Part shown: positions 16,101 through 59,189 of the stretch, piece by piece | Numbering within the stretch: the first letter of the stretch is position 1 | Layout: each line of letters opens with the position of its first letter | DNA from: Styela clava | Taxonomy: Eukaryota | DNA: 64,000 nt | Direction: 5' to 3' | NCBI RefSeq assembly: GCF_964204865.1 | Contig: NC_135253.1 | Coordinates: 15,314,001 to 15,378,000, forward strand | Position numbers and translations under genes: made by a program | The notes under the pieces: model-generated | Seen by the model: the letters and a program-made list of their open reading frames with translations, nothing else | Database searches by the model: none | What the model was told of the DNA's origin: nothing

Positions 16101-17913
16101 TTTTTGGGTCGAGGGTCGGGGAAACATCCATCGACTCGCACTATATTTATTATATTTTCTAAATTGGATTAATCCAGCACTTCATATTGATATACCCTAA
16201 TTCTTTATATTGAAGTTTGTGTAACGTCGTCTGTATCTCAACTCAGCAAATACAGTGTCACTGATACGATGACTTGTAGTCTTGCACGGCCCTCGTCAAT
16301 TGCGGAAATATTGCATGTCTGTTTATTCAATTGAACTTTTGTATTGTTATTTTTATTTTAATTGTGTCGATACAATATTCCATGCACGACGAAATAAACA
16401 TCTGAATCTATTACAGGGATGAAATAGGAAGTTTGCTTAAGATTGTTAAATGGCATACTGATACCGGTATTCATTTCGTCACACTGATTGCATAGGCAGA
16501 ACATAGACGTAGTTAATCTTAATATAGATCTCCTTCTTATAGAGCCAGGTCTAACAGACTTTCATCACGTTCAGTTCGCTAGTGGAGCAATGTTCAAATA
16601 TCTAAAATCCAAAAGGAGTACAACCGTGAAGGCCGCGCTCGAGGAAATTAAAACAGTATTCCAGTGAATCAAAATGAAACAGCAAAATTTTGAATATGAT
16701 ATTGGGTGTCAATAAATCAGAAAAATTCAGATGGAACGTAACAGCTTTTTGGCGAGTTCTGATAGCCTTGTTCCACGGTATGCTCCGGTCCTTAGGGATT
16801 GGCGATGTTGCCGAATAACCAAGTTCAATATTCAAATACCTTATACCCGCCCGGTAACCAGGCGAGAAGGTATGCTAATACTTGAGTTTAAAATGAGTAA
16901 GCCTGAATAAGAAACAGTCCCAAGTGAATACATGAAGCTCGATGGTCGGTTACCTACAATTTTATTTTTCAGCATAAAATTTTGTGTGTCAATTTAATAA
17001 ATCATTAACAAATACGCTGAATCAAATGCGCTCGCTGACCTAGTAATATCGCACCTTGAGGTACCACAGCAGCAACAATTGCGCTACGATTGCAAATAAA
17101 AATTAATGGTTCGCGTGTTGGTTGGTAACTTTAGTCAGGTGCCCTATTAGGAATATTATTGGACACGAAATGTACATATGAATCGTTTAGTTATTATTAT
17201 GTTGTTGTTCTTGTTGCTATTTTAAATATTACTCATTACTCCTGTTTTTCTATATAACAAAATTGGACGGTAAAATTTGTGTGAAAGTTTACAACTTACA
17301 GTAGAATCACCGTCCTCTGTTGGCGGATTGAATTGCCACTTACTTAAGTATGATTCACCACAAAGTATTCTACTGAAGCGAATGTACATTGTAACCATGA
17401 ATTTCAATGTTATTTAACCCCTCAATAGTAATAGTATGTTGAAGTAAATGGAAATACGTCATTCTAGCTACTTCCCTGATGAAGAGTTGTCGCGACAGCT
17501 CCAAGCATTAGCTTTTTGCATATAACCTTCTTTGTGTTTCCGGCTTCGTCTGAGTGTTGAAATAATAGTGTTTGTCATGTTCTTGTGATTTTGCTTTGGA
17601 TTCGACCGTATAACTGTAATAAGGTTTAAGTGTGTATTTGTTTTTGGATTCTTTAATAATTGGATTGTGCATATTTATAATATACGAAAATTTGGCATTA
17701 CAATACATTGTGTGCTTATTGACTTCTGAAGAGTTTAGATCGGAGTTACACTCTATTAAACGTGTGTCAACCCAATAACACGTGAGTGAAGCGCAGATAG
17801 GGATCCTCTCCCCTATACTACTCTGTTTGTATTTGTCAAGTCTTTATCCAATATTATGCTCTTCGCCAAGCTCAGAAAATCAGTATCAGTAGATTAGTAT
17901 AAAAGTTGTGAGG

Positions 17914-20900
17914 ATGCTGGTATTGACAGTGGCAGGAATCTTAGCAGCCTTGTCAGGCGTCGTTTTGTACTTCAAGTTGAAGTCTATGAGACTTGTCGAC
18001 CGAGTGAAACTACGTAAGTGTTTTATTAATAATGTAATAGTGCCTTACCTCAAAGCGTCAATCCCGAATTCTAATTATCGCTCAGGTCGCAGATACGATC
18101 GGTTTATAAATTTTTTATGATTGGATTGGGTCCAAAGTTGCAGTAATGACTTTTATAATTTCACACTAAATTTTGCTCGTTTTTATAATTAACGGGCTCC
18201 TATATTGTATTTAAGAAATGGCAATACATGCAAAGCTGAGGATTCCACAATTATTTCAACTAACCGGACTAGATACACGGATGAAGCCAAAACTAACCCA
18301 ATTCACGGCTTCGAATGGTTATAAAATTCTGCTGCCCTCACCGTTTACTGTTGCAGTTAATGAAATTTTAAAATTCAAAGTAAGAGAAGACGATGTTTTC
18401 ATCGTAGCTTATCCCAAAGCAGGTGAGGAAGAAAAGTAAAATGAAGGAATCGCGTGGTTTGTTAAACAACAAATTACAAAACTGAAAATGCCTATTTGTC
18501 TACCGTGTTTTCCCGAAAATAAGACAGTGTATTATTTCAATTTTCTTTCGAAAAATACCATTGGATCTTATTTTGGGGGGATGTATTTTATTTTCATTTA
18601 GAGAATTACGAGATTTTCAAATATACAAAATATGAAAACCGATATCCATTTACTTATAAACAACACGTTCTTATTTAAAATAACTACTAAACATAGATTC
18701 CTTTTAAACGAGTAGGAAAAATTTCTTGCTATCGAATAGGTCAAAAAAATTTGCGCTGTCGACTAGGTCTTATTTTAAAAGGGTAGGGCATATATTAAAT
18801 GATTTTAAAAATTTATGATAGGTCTTATTTTCATGGTAGGTCCTTTTTTCGGGGAGATCCGGTAGTACCAATGGAGCGGGATTCGATTTTTTGTGTGTGA
18901 TGAACGTCATCAAAATTAAAAATTGCGCAGCATGTATCGGTTCTGCGATCGCGATCTAGTGGTCAGGCGACGTCGGGAAGACCTCGTACCAAATCAAGTC
19001 AATTGGTACTGTGAAATATTAGATAGAATTATTAGAATACTTATATTGTATTACCTCGTTTTGGCTTTCGTGTCCATATATTTGAGCATTGCTCTCTTGT
19101 TGTAATAGTATTCGAACTTATTCCACATAAATTCATAAAGTCTATATGTATTGATGTTTGCTTTGTGTTATTTTTGTATTTTACAGGAACGACTTGGATG
19201 CAAGAAATTGTGTGGTTAATATGCAATGATGGAAATATAAAAGAAGCAAATAAACAATTGCTTACATTGAGAAGTCCGTTTCTGGAGATAGTGGATTGTC
19301 ATCTTCGCAATGGATTTCAATCTTTAGAAAATTGGTCAAGAAATAAACAAAGGTATATACCGTCACGCTAATACCCAAATTGCGTAAGTCATATTCAGCA
19401 ATTTTGAGAAAAACGTAATAATGATATTGTTATGCCATTGAGAGTAAATAATTTCCCATGGTTCAATTTTTTAGTCGTCTCCGAATTTGAAATTTATTTG
19501 TATGATGTAGGCACGTGACGTCATAATGGCACACTGTGACTTATGCAAAATGTGCCTATGACTTGGGAACATAGCAATTTTGCAACTTGATTTTATCCAT
19601 CAGTCCTGAAAATCAAACATTCGAAAAACATATGTAATTTACATTATTCACGATGTCTAAACCCCTAAACAGCCTATCTGTTTTAACTATTATTCTTTTT
19701 ATGTTTGATATATACAGTGATGAGCTGGAAAGATCGTAACAACCGGAACGCACCAAATTCGTGAAAATTTAATATATATATATTTACAACACGACGCTAC
19801 CAGTAATTTTGTCTGTGGTAAGATAGAGCCGAAGAACTACAATGAAATATGAAAAAATTATCTGAAATATGACTGTTTAAAATTGAAAGAATCTTCATAC
19901 TAATTCAATACAAATGTTATTATTAGATAGATATTCACGGGGTCAAAGGTCGGCGAAATATCCATTAAACGTTACTGCTGTGCACCAATTATTTGCCAGC
20001 TGTAATGTAAAAAGAATTATGATGCAACAAAACATCAATTAATAACTAAGTTTCCCGCAGAAACTAGACTTTTCGAACCATAATTTTATTTTAACAACAG
20101 GAACGCAAACGCGATAAAACGTCCAACAACCGGAACGCCGTTCCGGTTCGTTCCGGCTACAGCTCATCACTGGATATATATATATATATTTCATCAATAT
20201 AACGCACTCTGTACACCCACCGAAAATAAGACTTTCCCTAAATAATAAATATAAAGAATAAAAAAGAAATGAATGAATCCTTAAATAAAAGCCAACCAAT
20301 ATGAATTGGACTTAGAAAGTGGATATCACACGTGCTCACTTCACTTTAACAATTGCAATAATGTGCACGTCACATTAATCTCCATTTTATGCGTTTCGGA
20401 ATCCTTGGGATAAAATCTGAATTAACTGACAGGTGCGCAATTCGGTTATTAGCCTGACGATACACCTTTATTAGTTGATTCTAATGATGAAACTAAAACA
20501 AACAAATACAATCAAAATGTGAACATTGTATCACGGTCACATTCTATGCAAATTTCGACAGTGAATAGTTTTATTGAAATAATGATATATTATGATGGTC
20601 TCTCTGTATCCCATTTATTTCATTACCGAAGTCGATTCAATTCCAGCCAAACTAAAAATTTGGAATTTTCATTATATCTTTGTTATTTATAAAAAAAAAA
20701 TCCGGGGCTTTTCAGCATTAGGAAATAATAAAAACTCCATATTACTTACTAACAGCTTACCCACAACGTTTTAATGTATCGTTGAGTAACGCAATTAATC
20801 CTTTAATTTTTCTTCAAATGGTTGAATTATATTCAGTTAATAAATAGGTCACAAGAACTTTAATTTCAGAGTGATAAAGACTCATCTTCCGTACGAACTG

Positions 20901-22061: not shown

Positions 22062-22751
22062 GTTAAATATCATTATTCTGCATTATGATTGGGAAAGGAA
22101 TTTACAAAGATAATTATTACACACCATTGTATCCACGAATAAAAATGATTCAAATATTGAAAAATTCTGTATGTTTCAATCGAAATAGTTGACGGGAAAC
22201 ACTGCATTTTTTAAAGTTCAGACAATTTTCTATTAGGCTACATGAAGCATGGAATAAATCATACTCTTGGGACACGAAATGTACTTATGGATCGTTTTGT
22301 TATTATGTTATTGTTCTTGTTCGTTATTCTATTTTCTTGTTGTTGTTACAAAAAAATTACTTTTTCGTGGGTAAAAGTTGTATTTTTACCAATCATTTAT
22401 TTCAAAAATTTCTGCGGGCCCAATAAGAATCGTCATTTGTGTGCGATGGAGCTATCAAATTGCCCACCTTGTGGCAATTTCGCTTTCACGGTCAAGCGAA
22501 TTCATGAAGACTGCGGTGCCGGTGGTATAATATGACAGATTGCATGCCCGTATCACTTCGTTTTGGCCTTAATGTTCATATATTTGAGCATGGCTCTCTT
22601 TCTTCTTATATATTTGTGACAAAGACACAAAAATTTAAATTCGACATTCTTGATCAATGAGGATGAAGAAGCAGATATTTGTATATATATATATAAATTA
22701 TTATTCTATTGTTATATATTATAATCACATTTAAAATGAAATAAAATCCAT

Positions 22752-25700
22752 TTATTGTCCTCCAATCATAACATCAAGAACTTTTTTAAAGAACTGCTTC
22801 GGTTCTTCCAATTCATGAAACAGCAGGTCGGCGACATCATTATTCGCCAGGTCTTCATTCTGTAGAAAGAAAGCGTGTGCTTTCTGAAACATCGTACCAG
22901 AGAAAAGGTGGCCAACTTTTGAATTGGGTATTGGGCATCCTAAGAGGTTGTTTAGTCGCATTGCTTCGCAAATAATGGTTTGCCATTGTGCAGAAAAGTG
23001 CAATGCTACCTTGTCATAACTGCTTTTAGGTATTTGACGAAAAGCATCTGGCAAGGAGTCACCACCGATCTCATTGTAAGAACACGAAAACGTCAGTGCT
23101 AGTGCTTTACACACTTCGTCTAGTGGTGCCTGTTCTTGACATCTTGCCCAACTGTAAATACTTAAAACGAGAAGCTTGTTTTCCTCGCCAAGAACAGCTG
23201 CATCTGAAAAATCCGCATTCTGTATCATAGCTTTCGTAAGATATTCTTCTCGTGCGGCCATGATCACTTCACAAGTGTCGCATGCTCTTAATTCATCCCG
23301 TGTCATTTCAAGATGTAATTCTTCTGTTTGGTCCGCGTTTGGAACTGTCACTGCCATCACGTTTGCTGCATAATTTTGTCCTATTCGATCCATTTCTACA
23401 ATATGACGTTCAACCACATTATCATTTTCCTCCCTGTTAAAATGGATGATACATCCCAATTCGTAGAGCGATTGGCGAATCGAAAACGATGCTACATGGG
23501 AAGTGTTGTTCTCTGGGTTATCCACCATAAGCGGCATGAAACTCGCTGGGTCTTGCATTCCTTCGACGATCTCAAAACAATCTGGCTTTACGTCAGCTGA
23601 TTCGCCACCGTTAAGCAATGTATCCACATAGGTTTGAATATCAGGAAGCTGTTGATATATACGTAAAAATTCTCTGAATCTTTCTTCTGGAAAGTTTGGA
23701 TTGTTTGCCACGAATAATCGGATAATTTGATCGTTACTTTGATAACGGGCCAGCCACACCAACGCACATTCAATTGCATTTCGGAGATTCCTCGGACGCC
23801 TTACTTCCTGTAAAACAACGTTTGCTGTTATTAACTATGTAATTGATGCTTCGACTGATGCTCACCCACTATTAAACTATTTTACTGTTTTTTTTTCTGT
23901 ATATATATGTATATATATATATATGCATTGTGAATCACTACAAAGTCACGAAAGTTGCTTTAGTGAAAAATACATTGGAAAAAAATGTTCTGCGTATCTC
24001 GAGCTCCACAAGAGGGTAGAAAATTGCGACATTGCAAATAGTTCGCATAAATGTACATAGTTTGGCTATTATTATATTTTTCAAAAATTCCGGGGTATAT
24101 TGCTAGTGATTGTACAATCTCCCAGTTACAGATTTAAAACCATACCCAATGACTTATAGTGATTACTAAATCAAAAGTTTCCCATTTAATAATGAATATT
24201 TTCAGTCTCACTTTCCATATAAGACCTCATTGATTCCATCTAGAACCTAATTTCACCTTATGCCATTCTAAACATGGATATTTTATAGTTATTCACCCCA
24301 GGAAAAACTTGCAAGAAATCCTCAAAGTTTCCACCGAGGATTCCGTCTTGTGTGCTCATCAATGCCCCGAGAACAGATAACGCATTCCTCGGAGTTTCAA
24401 ACGTAATTTCCAAGATTGACTGACGAAATATTTTCCCTCGACAAGACCGTTGAGGTCGTTTTACCTAACAATGAATGTGAAATAAAACCCCAAGATCGAC
24501 TTTGATATAAAATGAAGCATATTTGTGAAAAGAATATAGAAATGAGATTTAACAAATTAAATAAAAGTAATATATATATTCATTATAAAATTATATCTTA
24601 TTATATTTTCGTGGCCAAGGCTCCCTCCAAGGTGCGCAGTACCAACGACCATTTGCGCAGTAAAATCTATATGGCTCGTGGCCCTCTTTGGAGGCTTTCA
24701 GCACTCATGGCCCTCCTGTTTAACAATTCAGTGGCATTTATATACTTTGATTGGTAGATTCCAAATTCCATTATGATCAAACAGTTCATGCCCATCAAAG
24801 TGAAAACACCCCATGATATAACTAAGCAATGAAACTTTAGGAAGAACGGGGAGGAATAATATTGTGAATTAAAAAGGAAAATCTGTCGGAAACCGTTGGT
24901 CTGACCAGGCCTGTCCGTGGGAATAGAATTCCCATCAGAATCCAATGGTTTGGAATGGGACAGCACACATTTTTATATCCCATGGGACACGAAAACCGTA
25001 TGATTTTCGGGGAAATGATGGTAAAACACTTCGTTATGGACTTCGTTTCCATATATTTGAGCATATCTCTCTTGTTAGGTATAAAGAGCCAAATATATTC
25101 ACCATCAACAATATACTTCGTGATGGGGCTGATGGACACATTTATAAGGGTTTCACCACATTTGAACCCACGTACATTTGAACCCACAACAATTGCACCT
25201 GTATACTATTTTTTGTTTACGGATATTTGAACCCATGCTAACCCTAACCCATGAATTTTAGCACCCTCATATATATTGAACCCGCGGATATACGGGTGCA
25301 AATGTATGGGTTCAAATGTACGCGGGTTCAAATGTACCGTCACCATGTATAATAGTTATGAATATAAAGTTAACAAAGTCCGTAAACTTGGTTATTTTGT
25401 ATGTCTATTCGTACATGTAGTCATGTTTAGTAGACGCTAAACCCAAATTTAACAATTTTTATCGAATTTCATTCCAATGGGATGGGCTGGGACAGGCATA
25501 ATTGCTATGGGATGGTATTGGAACAAAGAATATGTTCCATGGACAAGCCTGGGTCTAACTCTAACCTAACTAGAAATGCCTATTCCACGTTTCAGTGCTG
25601 TATCTTGGTTATCACTGTTGATTGTGATGTCACACACGTGTATGTTACGGCCTAGTTCTAGTATCTCTATTTATCTATACAAGCGCGGTCGGAGTCGCAT

Positions 25701-27927
25701 TTCGAAATCTTGAACAAACGATATGGATTTCTTGCTACGTCGGGAAAATTTGTCGGTTGCTCGTAGCCGTGTGGTCATGGTCTAAAATGGTCGGAATTTG
25801 AATAAGTTTACGGGACTGCTAGCGCCGTCAGCTCTTAGGCCTCGAGTTTCGGCACACGTGGCCATGGGATTTTATACTAAATGATATCAGTGTTATAATA
25901 TAAAAAAATTATGTTTACCAGGAATATGAGTTGAATGTGTACTTTGTTCGTATTCTGATAATATAATATAACATTGTAATATTTTACAAAGTCTGTAAAT
26001 CATTCATTTATGCTCAGGTTTAAAATATCCATGCCTATTTACAAATATTTGCTGAGTGTAAAGTTCTTATATGGAACATGGGTCGTGACATCATACCATT
26101 AATATTGCGTCGCCAGAAAACGTACGCATGTTTACTTCGGCATTGTAAATTAAACATATTCAAAATAATGGTGGACTGTTAGGGACGGATTCATGCTTGA
26201 CAAAAAATGCAGAAATATATAAAAAAAAAATTAATATTAGCTTTTGTGAACTGTAAACCTAACTACATCGGAGTAACTCTACATCTTGCTTCAAATACAA
26301 AAACATTAACATTGTAAAACAATGTCTACTGCACTATAATATTACCTCTCGCCATTTGAAGTCGCTCATAAAAAGAAATCCCTTGTTGACGTCAAATATA
26401 CAGAAATCAGTGTCCGACGCAAGAACCATCGCGTCAAGTTCGTTGGCAATTGCGGCGATTTGGGCATCAGCATCTCCAGGAACAACAATGAAAGGGACAC
26501 CAAGTTCAGTTAAAGTTTGCCTCAACACATCCTCTAGAAAATTTTGAAAAAAGATGATAAAATTTAAACTATCATACATACTTGCAATGAAAAACAATTG
26601 AACAAATTGCATTAGCAAGCTAGTCACGTGACTGATATGGGAAACGGTTTATATGACGTGTTGCATGCACCATTCCCCGCGGTAAAATGGCAAAACATCT
26701 CTCCGCGCACCATCGCTGTTAATGGATGTTTGCTTGCTACGTTATGTCTTAATAACCGTTTATTTCACGAATAAAATTTGGCGCTTCCGACGTATGTGCA
26801 CCAAGATGGCGCACAACCTGAACCCTAACCTGGTACACATACTATGTTCAGGTTGTGCGCCATACTTCTGGAGCTCCTAAAATTTAAACTGACTTCCAAG
26901 TAAAGGCTTTTCTTGTATTCTTGAATTCTCAGAGTTCACCAGTTCTCTTATACCACCCAATCTGGCAGTTTTCTCTTCGAGAAATCTTGTTATGTTGTTT
27001 CTCGATTTGAAACTAAAAACAATATCACGATAAAAGCACAACCACTGATTTATTTTTGTCATGTGGAAAAGTAGAAAACATATATTGATTAGTTATGGTT
27101 AAGTTATTACCGCGAAATAAGAAGAAAATAAATGACAAAAATCTTTTGAAATAGAGCAGTTTAAAAATATAAAATTTTATCGTTATAGTTCAAATGAGCT
27201 AGCCGCAAATAGCGCCGCATCTCAAGTTATATGTGTTAAAGTTATGGAATACTATATTGCTATAGTTCAACAAACTAGTAGAGCCCTTTTCAATAATATT
27301 TTGGTAGATTGTAAATTTGTTCTTGTTTACCTGTCAAATACCACGTAAGGTTGAATACGGCAACGGTTCAATACTTCGACAAATTGTTCTATTGTAGATC
27401 GAAATGACGTATAATCGCCGCCACGCCTGAAAATATTTTAATTGAAAGGGACTAACAATGAAGTAAATTGTGAGGCTATACATTTTGCGTGGGTAGTATT
27501 TTGCAAAGCTTCATTAGTTTTTCGTCGGTAATGAAATAGTATAATTCTATTTATACCTTCAACGTGAAACATGTATGACCCGTACGGTCGTACCCATTTT
27601 TCGGAATACACGTTTGTTATGCAATCAGAGTTTTATTTTGAAATATTACCTGCAATCTTATTTACAAAGATATCTGACATAGCTGAATAATCAACCGTAC
27701 ATAATCGAGCTAAATGTTCAATGATTGCTACAATAAATGTATTCAAAATATATACCGGTATATTAAATTGCAATATTCTACCTGGAATCCAAATGGCCAC
27801 AATCAAAGTAAAGAAAATACAGCAATTCTGATCCATCGATGATAACGTTTGTGTCACTCACATTGATATCTTCTAATAAAGGTTTGGGGTATTTGTGAAC
27901 GAAACCATGCAATCCTTTGACTCCCAT
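22752..27927 (-). CDS. ASTE1: asteroid homolog 1-like XPG/PIN-domain nuclease, copy 1, 590 aa; exons 27782-27927, 27331-27426, 26894-27012, 26346-26533, 24297-24464, 22752-23807
   Basis: Spliced ORF of 1773 nt. Hallmark ASTE1 motifs: MGVKGLHGFV…VIIDG…GGDYTSF…PYVVFD…GDADAQIA…VLASDTDFCIFD…HFSAQWQ…LNNLLGCP…LFSG. Confidence 0.9.
24906..25551. mobile_element. hAT MITE in ASTE1-1 intron 4
   Basis: TIR CAGGCCTGTCCGTGG / CCATGGACAAGCCTG; TSD GGTCTGAC / GGTCTAAC; empty site GGCCTAAC in copy 3 (~45353). Confidence 0.88.
25149..25344. mobile_element. MULE-like MITE (ACATTTGAACCC subterminal repeats) nested in the hAT MITE
   Basis: GG…CC ends; degenerate 9-bp TSD ATTTATAAG / ATGTATAAT; same family as 59190-59373 in reverse orientation. 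Confidence 0.75.
26780..26877. mobile_element. ~100-bp palindromic MITE (GG…CC ends, 8-bp TSD)
   Basis: ATGGCGCACAACCTGAAC / GTTCAGGTTGTGCGCCAT inverted repeat; TSD TAAAATTT on both sides; absent from the other ASTE1 copies; related copy at ~30955-31064. Confidence 0.85.
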
Positions 27928-28359: not shown

Positions 28360-31300
28360 AAGCTGGTATTGGCCGTGACAGGAACCTTAGCAGCCATGTT
28401 AGCGCTCATTATTTACTTCAAGTTGAAGTCTATGAGATGTGTCCACAGAGTAAAATTACGTTAAGTGTTTTCTCAATATTGTAAATAGTGCCTGTCAAAG
28501 AGTTGATCATTAATTTCAATACTTGCTTTGTACCGTCAAACTTTACACAATTTACGTTTTTAATGATATCTAATTTGATATGTCTTTTCGCGAATAGTCG
28601 AAAACCTTCTTTTTTCTTGATTTATGGACAGGCACTATACCTATCGATCGTCTTAAGAAATTGGGTTTGTTCTGATTGAAATGGGCCCAAATATGGAAAA
28701 TGTTACTATATAAATAACTTTTATGTTTTCAAATTCTTTTAATCCTACGAGGCCACATATTTCACGCTGAATTTTGCTGGTTTTTATAACCCACGGGCTT
28801 CTATCTTGTATTTAAGAAATGGCAATACATGCAAAGCTGAGGATTCCACAATTACTTCAAATAACCGGACTAGATACACGTATGAAGCCCAAACTAACCT
28901 AATTCAGGGCTTCGAATGGTTTACATCGTTTTAAATTAAAAGTAAGAGAAGACGATGTTTTCATCGTTACTTATCCCAGGGCAGGTGAAGAAAAAAAGTC
29001 AAATACCAGCATCACGTGATTTAGTAACAACAAATTACACGACCGGACATGCCTATTTATTAAGTAGCAATAGGACCAAATATTCCACCCAAAACTCTGG
29101 TGTTTTTATGGTTAACGGGTATATGACATTCGATACAATTATTTTATAAATTACCATTGTCATAGTCTTTTGACTTCGCGTCAAATTTTTTGAGCATTTC
29201 TTTTTTGTGGAACACGGAGTGGACCTATAGATTATTTTGTTGTCGTTGTTGTTAAAAAAAATTTGTTGTTGTAATGAAAAAATTGCTTTTCTATTTAATT
29301 ACTTTTAATTTTCAGGGGTCAAAAATTGGTGTTGTCGTTAGAACGCTATTACTTTTATTCATTTCTAACATTTCTGTGGTCTCTGCGGGATTCGATTTTT
29401 GTGTGTGATGACGTCATATAAATTAAAAATTGAGCACCTCATATCGGCTCTGCGTTCGCGATCTGGTGGTCAGGCGAAGTCAGGAAGACTCCGTACCAAA
29501 TCAAGTCAAGCTATACTGTGTAATATTAGATACTACTTCGTTTTGGCCTGCGTGTCCATATATCTGAGCATTGTTCCCTTTTTGTCATAGTAGTCGAACC
29601 TATTCCAAATAATTCCAAGTTTATATGTTTTGACGTTTACTTGGTGTAATTTTTGTATTTTGCAGAAACGACTTGGACGCAAGAAATTGTGTGGTTAATA
29701 TGCAATGATGGAAATATGGAAGAAGCAAATAAACAATTGCTTACACCGAGAAGTCCGTTTTTGGAGATAGTTGATTGTCATCTTCGCAATGGAATTCAAT
29801 CTTTAGAAAATTGGTCGAAAAGTAATCAAAGGTATGGTGCCTTCATTAGTTGATTCTGTCAATTCTAATGATGAAGAGAAACGAATCTGTATCTCCGACA
29901 CTTTCTTTGCACATTTCGACGGTGAAGTTTTGGTGAAATAACGATATATTATGATGCATCTTCTATATTCCAGGTATATTCACTACCGAAGTTTGAGATG
30001 TGGGTTCGATTCAATTTCGGCCAAACTAACAAGTTGGAATCTTCATTATTTCAAAAAAGGAACAACAGTGCTTTTTTGCATTAGTAGATAATGAACAACT
30101 TCTTATTACTTACTAACGGCTTACCCACGACGTGAAAGGAAAACAGTTTAGTTTCAATGTAACGTTAAATAACGCCATTATGTGTGTCATAAAGATTAGG
30201 AGATAATAAACATCTTGTTATTTACTTACTAACGGCTTACCCGCGGCGTGAATAGCACACAGTTTAGTTTTGCAGTTAAATAACGCAATAAATAAATTTT
30301 GTTCTCTTTAATTGGTTTAATAATACTTTTATTTAGTGATGAAGACTCGTTCTCAGTACGAACTGTTACCAGAAGACATCAAACAAGGAAAGAAATGCAA
30401 AATCATTTACGTAGCAAGAAATCCAAAGGATTTATGCGTTTTAAACTATCATTTCCATCGTATGCTTACAGGAACGCCTGACCTAGTAACATGGGAAGAA
30501 TTCCTCGCAAATTTCTGCTCACACAAAGTAGGATTAGGAGATTGGTTTGACCATACACTAAAATTTCGGGAGGTTGGTTCTAATTAATTTTTGTGGAAAT
30601 AATTATCGAAAAATAAATTTAGCTTAGTGGTTTCCAACCTCTTTGACGGAACGGAACCCCAATTAAACATTGCGGAGGCTCCAGGAACGCTTGTGCAATA
30701 CCCGCGAGGTAGTAAGAAAATATATATATATATATATAAACAAACTTTATGCTGGCACAACAAAAAATTTTTTAAAATGCAAAAGTTTTTAATGATATAT
30801 ATAAATATTTCATAATTCTAACAATATAATATACGTGTCCGAAAAATTCGCGCATGAAAAATCGCCGCAAGAGCATATAGCAGTAAATCAAGTATTTGTG
30901 ATGGAAACAGGTAGGATAACAGGGTTAGGGTATGCTCTCAAATAAAGAATCCTTGGTACTCCTAGAGTATGCGCACCAAGATGTCGCACAACCTGAACCC
31001 TGACATGGTACACAACCTGAGTTCAGGTTGTGCGCCATCTTGGTGCGCATACTTCAGGAGGTCCCCCTTTTTAAAATATTTAAAAATAAGAGGTATCTCA
31101 AAAAAATTTAACTGTTTTTATCACAAATACTTGTTTTACAGCAAAATGCTCTTGCGGCGAAGTTTTATTCGGCGATTTTTCCTATGCGGCGAAATTTTCT
31201 GCGGTGAATTTTTCTATGACCATATTATGAACTCTCGGCTTTAAATGTAAACTCTCGGAACCCCTGGCTGAAAAGCAGGCTATATGTTAACATGTCTGTA

Positions 31301-31718
31301 TTGTATATTCAACAAAAGTTCACATATAGGTCACAGAAATAAGTTTATTTAAAACTAAATACTCACGTTACTGATTCATGTTTTAGAAATATCAAGAAGT
31401 CAAGGAAAGAATATATGTCGTAACTTACGAAAATTTGAAGAAAGCTTTTCGAAAAGAAGTTGAATCAAAAAAATGTCGGAACAACAACTGGACGCTATTT
31501 CTGAACATTGTACATTTGACAGCATGAGTAAAAACAGAAGCACAAACATGTCAATGTTAAGACAAAATAGTATTTCCACGAAAAAGTCAGAGTTCATGAG
31601 AAAGGGACAGGTCGGTGATTGGAGAATTTATTTTACGATGAACCAAAGCTTGGCCATTGATGAGTTATACCAAGAAAAAATCAAAGGAACGGGATTTGAT
31701 ATTTCTTTTAGAAATTGA
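28360..31718 (+). pseudogene. SULT-E pseudogene (SULT-D duplicate)
   Basis: ATG changed to AAG (28360); exon 2 has CAA>TAA and a deletion; PSB Gly>Glu; catalytic His>Arg (KTR); exon 5 has a deletion and frameshift. Confidence 0.9.
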
Positions 31719-40940: not shown

Positions 40941-41660
<720 letters not shown>

Positions 41661-49345: not shown

Positions 49346-50361
49346 ATACAGTAATGACAAAAATTATTACCACAAGTTGATGACGATATAAAGTAAAAAA
49401 AAACTTATTCCACATAAATTTCCAAGTTCATATGTATTGACGTTTATTTTGTGTAATTTTTGTATTTTTCAGGAACGAAGAAAACGCAAGACGCAAGAAA
49501 ATATGTGGGTAATATGCAATGTTGGAAATATAGAAGAAGCAAATAAACCGTAAATATAAACAATTGCTTACACTGAGAAGTTCGTTTCCGGAGATTGTCA
49601 CCTTCGAAATGAAATACAATCTTTGAAAAATTTGTCAAAAATTTCTTCAAAGGTATAATTTCTTTATTAGTTGATCCTTGAATCTCCTTCACATTCTATG
49701 CAAATTTCGACAGTGAATAGTATTTTGTGAAATACCAGTATATCATGATACTCTCTCTCTCTATCAAAGGTTAGGATGTGCACTCGATTCAATTTCGGCT
49801 ATACAAAAAATTGAAATCTTAATTATATCTTCGTTATTTGAAAAAATTATTGTGCGTTTTTGCATTATGAGATAATGAACAACTTCCTGTTATTTGCTAC
49901 TGGCTTACCCATGACCCGAAAAAACACAGTTTAGGTTTAATGTACTGTACTATTAACTGGCGCGGGTAAAATTTTATTTTTCTTCAACTGGGTTAATATA
50001 TAATATAAAGCTAATAAATATGTCACAAAAAGTTTAATTTACAGAGTGATAAAGACTCATCTCATCCGCACGAACTGTTTCCAGAAGACATTAGGAAAGA
50101 AAAGATATGCAAAATTATTTAGGTAGAAAAAAAAATTCAAAGGACCTATGCGTTTCATACTATCATTTTCGGTGACGGCAGATTTGCACCCACGCCATTT
50201 GCACCCGTGAACTGCATCCAGCACATTCGTACCTGCATAATATATTTGCACCCAGCGATATTTGCACCCATACATTTCCACCCATAAATTTTAGCACCCG
50301 CGGACATTTGCACCTATGTGCATTTGCACCCACGAACATTTTCACCCATAGACGTTTGCAC

Positions 50362-52158
50362 CAGCGCCGGATTAACCATTAAACAATATAAGCACGTGCT
50401 TAGGGCACCAAGCAAAGAGGGGCACCACAGAAATTTTAGAGCAGAATTTTATATAGTTTATCGGTATTTATTAAAATATTAGGAGTTCACCAGGCGACTC
50501 AAACTTCAAAATGTTCGCTTATTTTTGTCTTCAAGTATCATATTAACCTTCTTTACTAAAAACAAACACTGAAACTTATTTATTGGACACGAAATGGGCC
50601 TATGAGTCGTTTTCTTAAATTGTTGTTGTTTTTTCTTTCTAGTATTCACCTTGTTTCTGCATTTTTTATTTTTGAAAAAATTTCTATTCTCTTCAACAAT
50701 TGAACCAAAAAACTATTTACACTATGTGGCGGTTCCACGATCGCATTTCAACGATATATTGGTCAGCAAAGTCGGGAGTTTCTTGATAAGGTAGACCAGG
50801 GTGGTCCAAATTCTGTCATGCTGATACATTCCGTGCGGCTCACAGAACAAATTTAGCGTATATTTGTATCTAATGGAGTAATGTTTTTGAGTTTTTTTTC
50901 AACTGGGGTTGGAATCCCGAGATTCAAACCCCTTTTTCTAACGCTCTGTGCCTTTATTTTAGTAAAACCATTCCTCTGTTTACAAGCGTCGGCCATGTGA
51001 CAGTAGTGACGAAACGCAGAACCGACTTAACGCCGCGTAATCCTTTTTTTTAACTAGGTCCCGAAAACCAACTTAGACTGACTTGGTTGGTATTTGACGA
51101 TGTCACTAAGCTTGCTCACGCTGTAAGTTTTTAAATTACTCAATATAACAATTCGTAATAAAATGAGTGTCGCAAGAAAGGTGACATAAGAGAACACGGC
51201 GGAAATGTATTTCCTTGCCCATCACGCAGTGTCTGGTATGATTTCAAGTAATATCTGTCACGACAGAATATAATTTGAAGCGACATTAAACGCGAGATGC
51301 TCAAAATACAACGGTAATTCTCGGGAATTAACTTTAAAACTAGAATATCGGTTAGAAACCGAAGACTTATCGATCGAAGGTTAGGGGATCCCGCAAAACA
51401 GTGGTCTTACTCCATAATGACATCATGTGTCCCATCACTAATTAAATAATAACTCGCTACTTATAAGACATAATCCATCCAAAATCAATAGGCTCCTGAT
51501 CCGAGCTATGATAAATGCACATGCAAAATTTAGAGCAGATTCAACCTCGCTTTCGTGAGATATCGCGTGCGTATCGTATCTAACATACAGACAAATACCT
51601 TAATATCTTAAGATCGATAGGTAATAACTGAAGGCTTTATATATCTTCTTTAAACGAACGCCAACCATGCAACATAATAAGAGTCTGATTAGAACGGTAA
51701 ACTCTCGTTGTTTATTAAATTTAAAGTAAGTAAACTCGCGATATTTTGATCACTTTTGGGTTTTCTCCGACTTGCGGCCCGCGATACCTCCTCAAAAGTT
51801 TTTGCGGTCCTTCAACCTAGCAACCTTGAACCACTCTGAGGTAGACTACTAGGTACCGGTAAAATTTCAAACTACAGTTGTGAATCTTTATTGTTACACT
51901 TCCTCAGGATTATAGCTCAACCGATATAACGGCCCGATATTGCGTGTTTGCATATATATATTATCGGCAGTAAACGGCCGATATATATATCGGCTATATA
52001 TAACAGTTAAAAAACCTAAAAATGTTCGCAAAAGTTGTTTATTTACTGTTGGTTGTGATTATTTTTAATGAATAATAATACACTTATGTGGTTATATTGT
52101 TTTTATAATCAAATTACACATGAGGGGGCACCAAAGTCTTCAGTGCTTAGGGCACCAA
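50362..52158. mobile_element. hAT element (Tip100-like ends)
   Basis: CAGCGCCGGATTAA / TTAATCCGCCCCTG; perfect TSD GTTTGCAC. Confidence 0.9.
50797..51838. mobile_element. Charlie/SPIN-like hAT derivative with a transposase 5' remnant
   Basis: CAGGGTGGTCCAA / TTGAACCACTCTG; perfect TSD AGGTAGAC; remnant QCLV…EYNLKRH at ~51225-51290. Confidence 0.85.
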
Positions 52159-54322
52159 AGGGGCTTAATCCGCCCCTGGTTTGCACCCATGTACATTTGC
52201 ATCCACCGATATTTGCACCTACGTACATTTGCACCCATGTATATTTCCACTAATGTACGTTTGTATCCGTGCACCCACGTACATTTGTATCCATACACCC
52301 ACGATTATTTGTACTCATGACATTTTCCCCATGTTCATTCGCCTCATGAACGAATCCACAGGCATGTTCGCGAATAATCGTGTTTCAGACAAACCATAAT
52401 TACCAACTACTGTATACATATATATTCGGCATGAAGGATTCCAAATTTTAAGTTGACTGTATTCTTGGTGAGGGTTACTATGTTTTTTTACTGTCATTGC
52501 GAGTTATAATTCCATTCCCCCTTTTGTTGGTCATTTTCTTTCGATGAAATAACGCAAACGTAGTCGAATGCACGGTGGTTGGTCGACGGTGGCGAAGAAG
52601 ACTGGCCGTACATAGTTAATCAAGTCAGTGGTAAACTAATTGTACAAGACTAGAGAGAGGTGCTCAGAGAAGGAAGAATTGAGAAGAAAAGAACAGAGAG
52701 CGACAAACGACCTCGACTTGGTGAAAGCAGGATTTTTATGGAACGAGTTGTTAACAGCACTTTCATAGTTTTTGTATTATTTCCTTATAAAGGTGTCTAC
52801 ACACGGGTGGTCCAAACCCAGGCCCGCGGGCTTCATCATCTGTGGTCGGCGTCGCATTCGGAGAGAAATCTACACCGATGCTGGTCGTTTTCCTCGATCT
52901 GAGTTAATAGATAAAAATCCAAAATAATCGTGTTCGGGTTTGCAGTGAGTTCGTCCCCGTTCCTATTCATAACATTTGGATGTCCCTATTTCGGCGCAAA
53001 TGGCAATAGAACTTCTCACTTCAAAGACTTGTATCAATGGGTGTAAATGTTGACGGGTGCAAAATTCCATGGGCGCAAGTGTCCATAGATGCGAATATCC
53101 GGGTTTGCAAATGACAAAATTTTGTTGCGCATACTACAGGAGGTCCGTTTAATGATATATATACGGAAATTTTATAAATCTAATAATAATACTAACCACT
53201 AACGGCTTCCGGGACTTCCCTTGGCTGAAAAGCAGGCAATATGTAAACATGACTGTTCTATATATGCGATATATGTTCACATATAGATCACAGAAATAAA
53301 TTTAATTAATACTCACTTTACTGATTTATGATGTCTTTGGAAATATCAAGAAGACGAGGAAAGAATATTTTTTGTAACTTACGAAGATTTGAAGAAAGAT
53401 CTTCGAAAAGAAGTTGAATCAAAATTTCTTTCTTAAAAAAAAATTGTCGGAACAACAACTCGACGCTTTTTCTGAACATTGTACATTCGACAGCATGAGC
53501 AAAAATAAAAGTATAAATATGTCTAGTCATGCAAATTTCAAGGATTTGAAGAAGTCAAAATTTTTTGAAAAGACAATTTTTTTTTTCCGCTAAATCAAAG
53601 CTTGGCTTTTGATGAGTTATATCAAGAAAAAAATCAAACAAACTGGATTTGATATATCTTTTGGAAATCGAATATTAAGTTAATTGTCATTAATATGCAT
53701 TATAATTGGTAAAAACATTTACAAAGGCGATTATTCAAACACGATTGTAGCCACAAACAAAAATAACTCAAACAATAAGGAATGCTGTATAAATGTTAAA
53801 TGAACATAATTTTTGGATACGAAATGTACATATGTTTTTTTTATATTGATGTTATAAAAAATGGGTTTTGTCATTATCACAGGCCAGTTGCTTTGAAGTT
53901 TCTGGTGGTTGAAGATTGTATTTTCCGCTAGAAGGTCATGACTTTTATTTATTTCAAAAATTTTTGTAGGCTTTATGGTATTCGTTTCTTGTGTGCGATG
54001 ATGTCATCAAAATTTTACATTCCGTGGCTGTTCCGTGTTCGCGTCATTGGTCAGGCTACGTTGTTTGGAATGCTGAGACGGTAATCTACTGTGACAGATT
54101 GCATGCCTGGGCTACATCGTTTTGACTTTCATGTTCATATATTTGAGCATTGCTCACTCTCTTTTCTTATATATTCGACATGAAGTCACAAAAAATATCA
54201 TGTCGATATCCTATGGACCTATATCAATGAGAATGAAGATGTAAATATAGGTACCGTGTAGGTATATTGAATATTATTTTATGTTATATATTATAATCAC
54301 ATATGATATGAAAAATATGCAT

Positions 54323-57300
54323 TTATTGTCCTCTAATCATAACATCAAGAACTTTCTCAAAGAATTGCTTCGGCTGTTCCAAGTCATGAAACAGCAGGTC
54401 GACGACATCATCATTTGTTAGGTCTTCATTTTGTAGAAAGAAAGCGTGTGCTTTCTGAAACAACGTACCAGAGAAAAGGTGACCGACTTTTGAATTTGGT
54501 ATTGGACATTCCAAGAGGTTATTTAGTCGCATTGCTTCACAGATAATGGCTTGCCATTGCGCAGAAAAGTGCAATGCTACCTTGTCATAACTGTCATTAG
54601 ATATACGACGAAAGGCATCCGGCAAAGATTTACCACTAATATCATGGTAAGAACACGAAAACGTCAGTGCTAGTGCTTTGCACACTTCGTCCAGCGGTGT
54701 CTGATCCTGACATCTTGCCCAACTGTAAATACTCAAAACGAGAAGCTTGTTTTCCTCGCCAACAACAGCTGCATCTGAAAAATCTCGATTCTGTATCATA
54801 GCTTTCGTAAGATATTCTTCCCGTGCAGCCATGATTACTTCACGAGTGTCGCATACTCTTAATTCTTCCCGTGTCATTTCAAGATGTAATTCTTCTGTTC
54901 GGTCCGAGTTTGGAACTGTCACCGTCATCACTTTTGCTCCATAATTTTGCCCAATTCGATCCATTTCTACAATACGACGTTCCACCACATTATCCTTTTC
55001 TTCTCCCTTAAAATCGATGATGCATCCCAATTCGTAAAACGATTGGCGGATTGAAAACGATGCTGCATGGGAAGAGTTGTTCTCTGGGTTATCCACCATA
55101 AGCGGCATGAAACTCACTGGTTCTTGCATTCCTTCGATGGTCTCAAAACAATATGGTTTTATGTCAGCTGATTCGCCACCGTTAAGCAACGTATCCATAA
55201 AACTTTGGATGTCAGGAAGATCTTGATATATACATAAACATTCCCTGAACTTTTCCTCCGGAAAGTTTGTAGTTTTGGCCTCGATTAATCGGATAATTTG
55301 ATCGTTGCTTTGATAACGGGCGAGCCACACCAACGCACATTCAATCGTATTTGGACGACGAAATTTTCTGGGAAGATTCCTTGGAAGCCTTACTTCCTGT
55401 AAACCAAAGTTTTCTGATATCAACTATGTATTTAATGGTTCGACTAATGCTCATCCAATATTAAACTATTTTACTGTTTTTCTGTATATATGTATATTGA
55501 ATCAATACAACGCAACGTAATCCTGCTTTAGTGAAAAATACAATGAAAAATCTTATGAGCATCTCGTGCTCCAAAAGCGGGTATAAAATCCCAAAATCTG
55601 AAAATTATATAGTTATTCACCCGCGGTAAAAGTTGCAAGAAGTCCTCAAAGTTTTCACCGATGATTCCGTCTTGTTTGCTCATCAATGGCTCGAGAACAG
55701 ACAAAGCGTTTCTCGGAGTTCCAAACGTAATATCGAGGATTGACTGACGAAATATTTTCCCTCGACAAGACCGTTGAGATTCTGTTACCTATAAATAAAA
55801 CCTTAAGATCGGCGTTGATATAAAATGAAGGACATTTCTAAAAAAGGCTAGGGCCGTGTCATCTGGACCAACTCATAATGGTCAAGTCTGTCATGACCAC
55901 AGCATCAGAAACAAAGATGATGTAGATAATAATGAATCAGTAACATATCAAGATCCAGTAATAGACATGGACAAAGTGTATAAACATTGGAAGAGCGTGA
56001 GAACAAGGAAAAGCTATTTGAGTTAAATGTGTACTTTGTTTGCATTCTGATAATATATTATACTACTATTGTAATATTTCACAATCTTTGTAAATCATTT
56101 AGAACTCTGCTTAGTCTTAAAATATTCATGCTCAGTAAAACAAACATTTTTTCAGTGTAAACTTTTCTTAGAGGGAACACTGGTCGTGACATATTATTAA
56201 TAATGCGTCACCAGAAAACGTACAACTGATACCCATTTACTTCCGCATTGTATATTGAACATATTCAAAATAAACGTTGACTGTTATGCGTGACATAGAA
56301 TGCAGAAATAAATACTCAACAACTAGTTTTTGTAATATTGGCTATTTTAAACAGTTAACACAACCACATCGGAGTAACTCTACATCTTGCTTCAAATACA
56401 AAAACATCAAAATTGTAATACAATGTCTACTGCGCTATAATATTACCTCTTGCCATTTAAAGTCGCTCATAAAAAGAAATCCCTTCTTGACTTCAAATAT
56501 ACAGAAATCAGTGTCCGACGCAAGAACCATCGCGTCAAGTTCGTTGGCAATTGCGGCGATTTTGGCATCAGCATCTCCGGGAACAATTATGAAAGGGACA
56601 TCAAGTTCGGTTAAAGTTTGCGTCAACACAACCTCTAGAAAAGATAAATTGAAACTTTTATACATACTCGCAAGGAAGAATGATTGAAACCAATTGCACT
56701 AGCTAGCTAGTCACGTGACTGATATGGCAGAAGGAGGAAACAGCATATAGGACGTGTTGTATGCATCACTCCCCCGCGGTGAAATGGTATAACTTCTTTC
56801 CGCGCACGATCACTGGTAATGGTGTGTATGCTTGCTACGTTGCGTCTTAGCAATCGTTTTGTTTTAAAAAAAAGGTACAAATAAAATTTAAACTGACTTC
56901 CAAGCAAAGGTTTTGCTCTTATTCTTGTATCCCCCGTGTTCACCAGTTCTCTTATACCACCCAATTTGGCAGTTCTGTCTTTGAGATATTTTTGTATGTT
57001 GTTTTCCGATTTGAAACTAAAAACAATATCACGATAAAAAGCACAACCACCAATAAAAGATAAAAATCTCTTTAATATAGCGGTTTATAAATATATAGTT
57101 CCATCATTTTATCGCTAGTTTAAATGCCGCATTAAATAGCGCCGTTTGTCAAGTTATAGGTTTTGAAGTTATGGAATACAATATTGCTATAGTTTAAGAA
57201 GCGAGTAGAGCCCATTTCAGTCTGTTTTCGGTGTATTGTACAGTACACTAACACCTGACATTTTGTTTACCTGTCAAATACCACGTAAGGTCGAATACGG

Positions 57301-57867
57301 CAACGGTTCAATACTTCGACAAATTGTTGTATTGTAGATCGAAATGACGTATAATCGCCGCCACATCTGAAAATATTTCAATTGAATGGGGCTGAGAATG
57401 AATGAGTAATTTGTGAGGCTATACATTTTGAATGGATGCTATTGCAAACGTTTCATTAGTTCTTCATCGGTAATGAAAAAGCACAATTCTTTTATACCAT
57501 CAATTTGAATCATTTATGACCGATACGGCCGTACCCATTCATCGGAATACACGTTTGTTATCAAGCAATCGGAATTTTACTTTGAAATATTTCCTCCAAA
57601 CTTACTCACAAAGATGGCTGAGAAAGCTGAATAATCAATCGTTCATTATCGGGCTGAATATTTAATGATTACTTTATTGAATATATCCAAAATACCGGTA
57701 TGCTAAATTGCAATATTCTACCTGAAATCCAAAGGGCCAGATTCATAGTAAAGAAAATACAACAATTCTGATCCATCGATGATAACTTTCGTGTCGCTGA
57801 CATTGATATCTTCCAATAAAGGTTTGGGGTATCTGTGAACGAAACCACTCAACCCTTTGATTCCCAT
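54323..57867 (-). CDS. ASTE1: ASTE1-like copy 4, 596 aa; exons 57722-57867, 57271-57366, 56898-57016, 56447-56634, 55621-55788, 54323-55396
   Basis: GT-AG exons 146/96/119/188/168/1074 with an open frame and ASTE1 motifs. Confidence 0.9.
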
Positions 57868-58044
57868 TGCTACACTTTTCTATTCGTACCCCAATCTGGA
57901 TATAGTATGATAATCAAATGATAAAGATTTAGCCTCCGTGCAGGAAGAGTAACCCTTTACTTTCACCCCGCCAGCAGACGATAAAACTAGACCTAATACT
58001 GGTGCGGGTAGGCTCGCTCAATTTCAGTGAATAAATCATGAATA

Positions 58045-58095
58045 TACACCATACTCTCATAAGAGGGAATTCCCCTTTGCGGGGAACGCGGTGCA
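58045..58095 (-). promoter_or_regulatory. candidate structured RNA element (three-way junction) in the ASTE1 5' leader; also at 28110-28160, 39968-40019, 47784-47835 and 49245-49295
   Basis: Three stems can be drawn in all five copies, with compensatory or G-U-tolerated changes that work only on the ASTE1 sense strand. Confidence 0.5.
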
Positions 58096-59189
58096 AACTC
58101 AGCGCATATAAGATTCGGTTGAGAGAACATGTTTTAAAAGTCAATAACGACGAATAGAAAGCAGCGACCCGAGAAACTTTAATGAATGAACCGTGTTTTA
58201 CTAAAGGTTGCTGGCGATGACTAAAGTAACAATAGTGGCGTGAATTGAGTTTTTAACGTACATTCCTCTTGTTGCCACAAACACAAGTTATTTACGACAA
58301 AATAATATAACTCATGGATAGCATGCGCTCTTTAATGATTGTTTCAAAATCATAATATTCATTGTTATTATATGTATTTTATTGTAACAGACTGTGATTA
58401 TAGTTCGGTAATCTATATTTGCAGCAATGAAAAACTAGCTGTTGCATCTTTTCCACAGGTCGTATAATCCTCGGGAACGGTTATTGCTCTGTATTTGGAT
58501 CAGCTTTCGACCGCAGTAAAGCCTCTACCATCCTTCACTGGTATTTTAGGTCATTTAAACATATCAAATTTTGCCAAACGCAACTGTATGCGCGAATAAA
58601 CAGCAAACTGGCATTAAATTCTCGTATAACCCCAAACATAGATTCATGCATTCGGGTAAGGTTGCAAAAAATGTACAGATCAAATGAATTATTGTATCAC
58701 AAACGTTGTAACTGCATCGTTGCAATATAATTCCTTAATTAGCTGGTTTTTCTATCAATTTTTGTCACTGAAATGATGGTATGCTTTTTGCACTAATTCG
58801 TAACATGGTGGGTAAATTTACGACCCGAAACATTTTAATTCAGTTGAATAACATAATGAGAAAAAGTCCAAATATTTTATAGTATTTCTGTCGTTATAAT
58901 TTAATAAATTTACTGTGTGATCTCCGCACATTACACTGCACAAACTAGTAATCGAAAATATAGCTAAAAGTCTCAACTACTGTCGAACCTGACTCGATCA
59001 TAGCCGTTCATAATCTGTCAATATTGTTAATGTAGTCACTAACCAGGAGTCAATGACAAAGAACGGACAAGCACGGCAGAACAAAAAAATTAGGACGTGG
59101 AAACGAACAGGGCAGCGCCAAATACTAGACGAAAAAAACCTCGCCAGCAAACTACGTGTGGTGTACATTTCAGAAAAACTATAATATCT

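What the first reader, a model, noticed from the sequence alone, without database searches (positions are those of the whole stretch)
17800..58160. Four-unit tandem array of a convergent SULT/ASTE1 cassette: ASTE1 is preserved while SULT decays
Seen: ASTE1 stop codons at 22752, 32452, 43215 and 54323 (spacing ~9.7, 10.8 and 11.1 kb), each ~0.65-0.75 kb from a SULT 3' end. Three ASTE1 copies are fully open and one has a single stop. The SULT partners range from near-intact (D) to multiply disabled (E) to fragments (F, G). Established: ASTE1/asteroid is a usually low-copy XPG/FEN1-superfamily nuclease linked to DNA-end processing. Inference: selection has kept and diversified the extra ASTE1-like genes, with SULT as a passenger. 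Such birth-and-death expansion is typical of defence or conflict genes rather than housekeeping repair.
Basis: partly seen in the sequence, partly recalled or inferred. Interest (0 to 1): 0.7.

Follow-up and report, generated by a model that had tools for sequence, protein, structure and literature searches.

The report
Sea squirt's second ASTE1 nuclease, quadrupled
A sea squirt carries four side-by-side copies of a second, sea-squirt-specific version of the DNA-cutting gene ASTE1, separate from its ordinary copy and with a shifted motif at the predicted DNA entry gate, which likely gives it a different job, possibly in antiviral defence, while the neighbouring sulfotransferase genes were likely just copied along and mostly broke.

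Summary
The window (Styela clava by exact RefSeq matches) has four six-exon ASTE1-like genes, three open and one with a single stop, each tail-to-tail with a sulfotransferase (SULT) that is near-intact, broken or a fragment. New here: the genome has a separate canonical ASTE1 on another contig, and the array groups not with it but with divergent ASTE1-like proteins of Ciona and Clavelina (100/99; Styela-only clade rejected, p=0.004). This is an old second ascidian lineage ('ASTE1-B'). In all B proteins the helical-arch K-x6-R pair sits four residues earlier than in canonical ascidian ASTE1. Styela copies keep all seven acidic residues; Ciona and Clavelina B do not. Copies are under purifying selection (dN/dS 0.51-0.57); site tests find no positive selection. 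Copy 4 is spliced at all five introns in public contigs. SULT F and G share one lesion, supporting the passenger reading. Defence is plausible from silkworm and trout papers but untested here. The scan's index held no earlier ASTE1 finding.

The parts
22752..27927 (-). ASTE1-B copy 1, 590 aa, open; exons 27927-27782, 27426-27331, 27012-26894, 26533-26346, 24464-24297, 23807-22752
   Evidence: equals XP_039248393.2
32452..39786 (-). ASTE1-B copy 2, 596 aa, open; exons 39786-39641, 39252-39157, 38795-38677, 38387-38200, 34167-34000, 33525-32452; branch dN/dS 0.9, not different from 1
   Evidence: equals XP_077967915.1
43215..47595 (-). ASTE1-B copy 3, 590 codons with one stop at codon 130 (46293-46291); exons 47595-47450, 47118-47023, 46696-46578, 46319-46132, 44931-44764, 44270-43215; branch dN/dS 0.35, so the stop is probably recent
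54323..57867 (-). ASTE1-B copy 4, 596 aa, open, lowest branch dN/dS (0.31), spliced at all five introns in public contigs; exons 57867-57722, 57366-57271, 57016-56898, 56634-56447, 55788-55621, 55396-54323
   Evidence: equals XP_039248392.2
18218..22054 (+). SULT D, four exons, near-intact; one-base loss near 22011 in the window that two of three covering contig sets do not share; spliced
28819..31717 (+). SULT E, multiply disabled, a young copy of D (exon 4 distance 0.055)
41009..42459 (+). SULT F fragment: first 122 bases of exon 3 and a broken exon 4
49473..53668 (+). SULT G fragment: broken exon 2, exon 3 cut at the same place as in F, broken exon 4
5613..14207 (+). SULT A (5613-7285, open), B (about 8417-10100, broken) and C (12623-14207, open): the ASTE1-free part of the same SULT cluster, which continues upstream of the window

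Best explanation
The array is four tandem copies of a second, ascidian-specific ASTE1 gene lineage (ASTE1-B), separate from the canonical ASTE1 on another contig, which likely multiplied by unequal crossing-over at the end of a sulfotransferase cluster and likely works as a structure-specific nucleic-acid binder with changed or weakened cutting, possibly in antiviral defence. Shown: gene structure, the separate canonical gene, grouping with Ciona and Clavelina proteins, the FEN1/XPG-type predicted fold, seven acidic residues kept in Styela, the arch K-x6-[RK] pair at +3/+10 after the second aspartate instead of +7/+14, purifying selection, splicing of copy 4, shared SULT lesion. Inferred: ASTE1 duplicated once in an early ascidian; B slid or rebuilt its DNA entry gate and so takes a different substrate or cuts poorly; in Styela one SULT/ASTE1-B junction was copied and reshuffled by unequal crossing-over and gene conversion; copy 4 carries most of the constraint while copy 3 has just been lost and copy 2 may be drifting. 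My odds for the job: inducible handling of foreign or stress nucleic acid about 0.4, non-cutting RNA or DNA regulator about 0.3, back-up repair about 0.2.
For: Canonical ASTE1 at G000:C2:7444840-7454418 (P0049) with K-x6-R at +7 and LGND, and the same first five intron positions by eye. IQ-TREE, 34 rows: B clade 100/99, all nine ascidian rows 100/98; FastTree with 152 and 130 rows agrees; AU test rejects array + canonical Styela gene as one clade, p=0.004. Six residues are shared by 5 of 5 B rows, absent from 4 of 4 A rows and in at most 3 of 126 others. K-x6-R lies at +7 to +9 in 117 of 126 other homologues, at +7 in 4 of 4 A, at +3 in 5 of 5 B. AlphaFold with a 135-row alignment: pLDDT 88.8, pTM 0.92; best matches GEN1 (Z 15.1, rmsd 4.0, 251 aligned), FEN1, EXO1. 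Codon model dN/dS 0.57 (F3x4) and 0.51 (F61), below 1 at p=9e-7 and 1e-8; family-conserved columns vary among copies at 7 of 85 against 116 of 308 variable columns. ASTE1 bodies group 1+3 / 2+4 while SULT exon 4 and spacer group 1+2 / 3+4 (53 of 56 informative spacer sites), which needs recombination. Silkworm Asteroid is induced by virus and dsRNA and its knockdown raises viral load (PMC10298989, abstract); trout aste1 is listed among typical interferon-induced genes (PMC12934228, passages).
Against: No activity, localisation or induction data for any B protein. Site models show no positive selection. B and the Styela A gene are long branches, and A's own monophyly is weak (83/52); Ciona A scores the array's exon 4 above the C2 gene (6e-12 against 2e-7). 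Only three genera supply B rows, from the best 150 of 947 hits. The silkworm and trout reports concern other ASTE1 genes, and tunicates are not known to have interferon (recalled).
Confidence: 0.55

Rival explanations
1. Arms-race defence gene: the four copies were kept and driven apart by positive selection to recognise or cut different foreign nucleic acids.
For: A canonical copy frees B to diverge. On the branch separating copies 1+3 from 2+4, the nuclease core has dN/dS 7 (p=0.02 uncorrected) and 10 of 11 informative codons change the residue, three of them in the arch helix (89, 91, 95). Branch ratios differ (p=0.002). Antiviral reports in silkworm and trout. A clade of 10 long-branch ASTE1-like proteins, 5 of them named and all teleost.
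Against: That branch test is one of 10 made after seeing the data and does not survive correction; recombination among copies can inflate it. Whole-gene site tests are not significant. One copy has a stop. Four sequences give little power either way.
Confidence: 0.22
2. Pseudo-nuclease: B has stopped cutting and acts as a nucleic-acid-binding regulator, as proposed for FAM120A and yeast Mkt1; the copy number is incidental.
For: Ciona B lacks two of seven acidic residues and Clavelina B one, both at the FEN1 D181-like position; in FEN1, D181A lowers the rate 10^4-fold and K93A or R100A at least 2000-fold while binding stays (PMC4825025, passages). The canonical +7 lysine is asparagine in 5 of 5 B rows. 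Styela copies also replace the glycine after the second aspartate (G in 125 of 126 others) and the GND motif, and are net acidic (-1.7 to -4.6 per 100 aa, median of others -0.3). ASTE1, FAM120 and Mkt1 are proposed as one group (PMC12345631, passages).
Against: All seven acidic residues are kept in the Styela copies, and a K-x6-[RK] pair with the canonical spacing is invariant in B.
Confidence: 0.25
3. Neutral by-product: only one B copy is needed; the others arose because the flanking SULT cluster is a duplication hotspot and are on their way out, ASTE1 merely decaying later than SULT.
For: At least ten SULT copies or remnants lie within about 77 kb, several broken with no ASTE1 beside them. 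Copy 3 has a stop; copy 2's branch is not different from 1. Gene conversion from a working copy can keep paralogs open (mosaic).
Against: Copies have 16-23% synonymous divergence with no frameshift and one stop in about 7100 coding bases, while SULT E, only 0.055 from D, already has several lesions. Branches of copies 1, 3 and 4 are each below 1 (p=0.02, 0.0004, 1e-5). Copies 1 and 2 show splice junctions.
Confidence: 0.2
4. Assembly or haplotype artefact.
For: None beyond the possible one-base homopolymer error in SULT D.
Against: Copies differ far more (12-23%) than database versions of one copy (2-3%), have private insertions, and three have separate older records.
Confidence: 0.02

Closest known systems
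ASTE1 / Asteroid (Pfam XPG_I_2 PF12813, Asteroid_N PF27698), human single-strand DNA endonuclease downstream of shieldin
   Same: Full-length homology, Pfam XPG_I_2 above cut-off for 3 of 3 open copies, seven acidic residues, intron positions shared with the canonical Styela gene.
   Different: Second lineage beside the canonical gene; arch K-x6-R shifted by four residues; DG to DS and GND to [TRK]QD in Styela; four tandem copies; 23% identity to its own genome's canonical ASTE1.
FEN1 / EXO1 / GEN1 / XPG structure-specific 5' nucleases
   Same: Predicted fold and two-metal acidic site layout (PMC5499597 section 14).
   Different: 12-17% identity; gateway lysine not at the canonical place; long ASTE1-type C-terminal half.
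Ciona XP_002130091 and Clavelina CAK8692778 (annotated only as asteroid-like or unnamed)
   Same: Same clade and same arch motif.
   Different: They lack the D181-like aspartate; 26-27% identity to Styela copy 4; their copy number and neighbours were not examined.
FAM120A / Mkt1 non-repair members of the ASTE1-like group
   Same: Same overall architecture (PMC12345631 passages; Atlas structure rows 5, 7, 9 for the Clavelina B protein).
   Different: B is closer to ASTE1 (TM 0.82-0.87 against 0.68-0.79) and sits inside ascidian ASTE1 in the tree.
Silkworm BmAst and trout aste1 (virus- or interferon-induced ASTE1 genes)
   Same: Same family; give a precedent for an antiviral role.
   Different: Different lineages; no link to ascidian B was tested.

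Membership tests
ASTE1/Asteroid family | XPG_I_2 (PF12813) above the curated cut-off | tested here: met
   31.0-40.4 bits against 24.2 for copies 1, 2, 4
ASTE1/Asteroid family | Falls among ASTE1 proteins, full length, rather than FEN1/EXO1/FAM120 | tested here: met
   15 of the 20 hits looked up carry ASTE1/asteroid names in their cluster or are unnamed XPG-N proteins of animals, none FEN1 or FAM120; tree. No FAM120 row was put in the tree.
Canonical ASTE1 ortholog | Groups with the conserved single-copy gene and keeps K-x6-R at +7 to +9 and G-x-D | tested here: not met
   The C2 gene meets this; the array does not
Active FEN-like 5' nuclease | PIN/FEN fold with helical arch and H2TH region | tested here: met
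   Model pLDDT 88.8; GEN1 Z 15.1, FEN1 and EXO1 Z 14.2
Active FEN-like 5' nuclease | Seven acidic metal-site residues | tested here: met
   D31, D80, D141, D143, D161, D163, D223 in 3 of 3 open copies and in copy 3; not met in Ciona and Clavelina B
Active FEN-like 5' nuclease | Gateway lysine and arginine (FEN1 K93/R100) reaching the active site | tested here: inconclusive
   Canonical position is Asn; a K-x6-[RK] pair lies four residues earlier; distances could not be measured
Active FEN-like 5' nuclease | Metal-dependent cutting of DNA or RNA | not testable with these tools
   needs purified protein
Defence gene under birth-and-death with arms race | Tandem expansion with pseudogenes and exchange among copies | tested here: met
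Defence gene under birth-and-death with arms race | Positively selected sites | tested here: inconclusive
   Site tests not significant with four sequences; one post hoc branch test p=0.02 uncorrected
Defence gene under birth-and-death with arms race | Induction by infection or dsRNA | not testable with these tools
   Runs are coded contigs without tissue or treatment
Cytosolic sulfotransferase (PF00685) | Sulfotransfer_1 match | tested here: met

The most novel reading that the evidence does not exclude
ASTE1-B is an ascidian antiviral nuclease whose entry gate slid by one helical turn to take a new substrate; Styela split it into two subtypes (copies 1/3 and 2/4) that differ in the arch. With the silkworm and trout reports and the divergent teleost copies, ASTE1 would be a repair nuclease repeatedly recruited to innate immunity across animals.
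Probability: 0.25. Interest if true: 0.75.

Novelty: new variant of a known kind. Interest (0 to 1): 0.42.

Why it matters
ASTE1 has no solved structure among the hits and one well-described role, in vertebrate break repair. An ancient duplicate with a naturally shifted gateway motif, catalytically complete in one ascidian and incomplete in two others, is a ready test of how the K93/R100-type gate sets activity in this family, and of whether ASTE1's reported antiviral side is a separable function. The tandem array itself is an ordinary product of a duplication-prone cluster.

Tried and rejected
Pfam found nothing in the last exons alone (0 families for 4 of 4). The PF12813 genome search missed the canonical C2 gene (its score is under the cut-off) and its fifth hit read as an EXO1-like gene by recalled motifs; the canonical gene appeared only with a Ciona query, so the idea that the array holds the only ASTE1 was dropped. 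Word-based homologue searches returned only Styela proteins plus one unnamed ENA protein, so no further B members were found; this is no evidence of absence. Single-sequence fold failed (pLDDT 32). No listed run is on record as RNA; splice junctions show that RNA is in them. No junction could be assigned to copy 3, and runs were chosen with copy 4, so copies cannot be ranked by expression. A simple two-step doubling was considered from the 1+3 / 2+4 pattern and rejected as sufficient because the SULT side groups 1+2 / 3+4. A regular-expression hit for K-x6-R in Ciona B at +13/+14 is out of register and was not counted as canonical. The 2021 ASTE1-shieldin paper is not held; it was seen only as a citation. 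Literature searches for an ascidian ASTE1 duplication or for this array and for ASTE1 with immunity listed no paper on it; subscription journals and supplements, where gene lists might name these loci, were not searched.
Full report
1. Observation. Self-comparison shows four related units between about 17.8 and 58.2 kb. I modelled four minus-strand genes with six coding exons each; all 20 introns are GT..AG and exon lengths match across copies (146, 96, 119, 188, 168, 1056 or 1074). Copies 1, 2 and 4 are open; copy 3 has one TAA at codon 130. Copies 1, 2, 4 equal RefSeq proteins of Styela clava letter for letter; no record was returned for copy 3. Older database versions of three copies differ by 1.7-3.4%, far less than the copies differ from each other (11.7-23.4%), so the array is real.

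2. The SULT side. The genome has a large sulfotransferase family (156 exon-level matches). At least ten copies or remnants run from about 23 kb upstream of the window to 53.7 kb: A and C are open, B is broken, D is near-intact, E is multiply disabled, F and G are fragments. F and G stop at the same base of exon 3 (116 bases missing in both), so a unit was copied when its SULT was already dead. D is spliced in contigs of X1 and X3, which carry an extra A at 22011 that the window lacks; X9 covers the place without it.

3. A separate canonical ASTE1. Queries from the array and PF12813 found only the four copies, but Ciona ASTE1 found a gene at C2:7444840-7454418, equal to P0049 (755 aa, Styela clava LOC120336591). 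It keeps DG, K-x6-R and LGND, and its first five introns fall at the same places as the array's (read by eye), so the array came from a DNA-level duplication.

4. An old second lineage. A sensitive search gave 947 hits, of which 150 were listed. Among them are Ciona (two), Clavelina (two), Phallusia (one) and Styela proteins. In a 34-row IQ-TREE tree (9 ascidian rows and 25 others chosen by me) the array joins Ciona P0008 and Clavelina P0012 at 100/99, and all ascidian rows form one clade at 100/98; the canonical-type rows group weakly (83/52). FastTree on 152 and 130 rows gives the same B clade. Forcing the array with the Styela canonical gene is rejected (p-AU 0.004), though long branches could bias both. 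Clavelina B scores the array far above the C2 gene (4e-9 against 0.08); Ciona A also scores the array's exon 4 higher than the C2 gene, which tells against a clean reciprocal result. Six residues are private to B. Styela, Ciona and Clavelina belong to three different ascidian orders (recalled), so the duplication is ancient.

5. Anatomy. The alignment-based model is confident (pLDDT 88.8) and matches GEN1, FEN1, EXO1 and XPG. All seven acidic positions are Asp in the Styela copies; E to D at 141 is shared by all nine ascidian rows and is not special to B; Ciona B has lost two and Clavelina B one (115 of 126 other rows keep all seven). The arch differs: K-x6-R starts 7-9 residues after the second aspartate in 117 of 126 other rows and at +7 in 4 of 4 A rows, whereas 5 of 5 B rows have Asn at +7 and K-x6-[RK] at +3; copy 3 has it too. 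In FEN1 the matching K93 and R100 protrude into the active site, and their loss cuts the rate at least 2000-fold without stopping binding (PMC4825025, passages; arch lysine also in PMC5499597 section 14). Either the gate slid by about one helical turn or B cuts poorly; I could not measure this. The 135-row alignment left out short and fragmentary hits of the 150.

6. Selection. Counting gives dN/dS 0.33-0.64 with all six bootstrap intervals below 1 and dS 0.16-0.23. My codon likelihood code reproduces IQ-TREE's value (-4252.48) and gives 0.57 and 0.51, significantly below 1; M2a and M8 are not better than their nulls. Branch values: copy 4 0.31, copy 3 0.35, copy 1 0.52 (each below 1), copy 2 0.90 and the inner branch 1.29 (neither different from 1). 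Splitting the gene, the inner branch in residues 1-239 has 7.0 (p=0.02, one of 10 post hoc tests) and copy 2's last exon 1.68 (p=0.16): a hint of early divergence between two subtypes, no more. The units are mosaics: ASTE1 bodies group 1+3 / 2+4, SULT exon 4 and spacer 1+2 / 3+4, and copies 2 and 4 share a much closer upstream region (0.065). This needs gene conversion or unequal exchange and weakens single-tree tests.

7. Expression. I laid 4 of 13 holding runs (3 studies). All five introns of copy 4 are skipped at the predicted sites: all five in X5, four each in X3 and X9 counting only cleanly placed ones as listed (X3 introns 2-5, X9 introns 3-5 plus an intron-1 joint placed partly on copy 2), two in X1. 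Copy 2 shows an intron-1 joint in X9 and an exon 3-4 join in X1 and X9; a joint in X9 carries 25 letters that match the start of copy 1's last exon (my reading). Nothing could be assigned to copy 3. Contigs give no levels, tissues or treatments.

8. Mechanism and rivals. Best reading: an old, faster-evolving ASTE1 paralog with a changed gate, amplified in Styela by local recombination with SULT as passenger, held mainly by purifying selection. Its job is most likely outside routine repair, which the C2 gene can cover. An antiviral role has precedent: silkworm Asteroid (PMC10298989, abstract and outline) and trout aste1 as an interferon-induced gene (PMC12934228, two passages; PMC8619301, two passages, only lists aste1 as differentially expressed after vaccination). 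A non-cutting regulator like FAM120A or Mkt1 (PMC12345631, passages) fits the losses in Ciona and Clavelina. Neutral passenger status fits copies 2 and 3 but not the contrast with SULT E.

9. Novelty. ASTE1 and SULT are known families and three copies are already annotated. I found no paper on an ascidian ASTE1 duplication, the shifted arch motif or this array (listings only), and the scan's index had no ASTE1 finding (one unrelated nuclease-cassette note). PMC11574390 was seen as passages and added only general background. Verdict: real, a new variant of a known kind, moderate interest (0.42); the defence claim remains open.

Noticed in passing
L027:1528-7938 minus (G000:C4 about 15293528-15299938, upstream of the window): An open 2136-aa frame of a BEL/Pao LTR retrotransposon (Peptidase_A17, DUF1759, DUF5641, integrase), with a near-identical 471-bp direct repeat on either side (99.8%): a young insertion inside the SULT cluster.
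   Followed up: partly
G000:C4 about 15301984-15304521 plus (L024/L023): An 846-aa endonuclease/reverse-transcriptase-like frame (LINE-type, label recalled from its motifs) lying between exons 2 and 3 of an upstream SULT gene.
   Followed up: no
window 60675-62456 minus: A 593-aa single-frame gene with 20 sperm-tail PG-rich (SHIPPO) repeats, the right-hand neighbour of the array; beyond it lie NUBP2-like and TANGO2-like frames (labels recalled).
   Followed up: no
window 34447-35515, 41194-41447, 50244-50362, 52180-52313, 25293-25339: Arrays of a 16-bp unit and other short interspersed elements, in both orientations, inserted privately in introns and spacers; very abundant in the laid contigs.
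   Followed up: no
window 22054-22752: A SULT D contig runs on to 22645, about 100 bases from copy 1's stop and past its likely polyadenylation signal about 350 bases downstream, so the two 3' ends probably overlap in antisense.
   Followed up: partly
proteins P0018, P0021, P0036, P0053, P0079 and five more: A clade of long-branch ASTE1-like proteins; the five looked up are from teleost fish, some with altered metal-site motifs. A parallel expansion worth checking against interferon induction.
   Followed up: partly
P0007 (Tegillarca granosa, 861 aa): Holds two ASTE1 N-terminal halves in a row, suggesting a tandem ASTE1 duplication merged by annotation in a bivalve.
   Followed up: no
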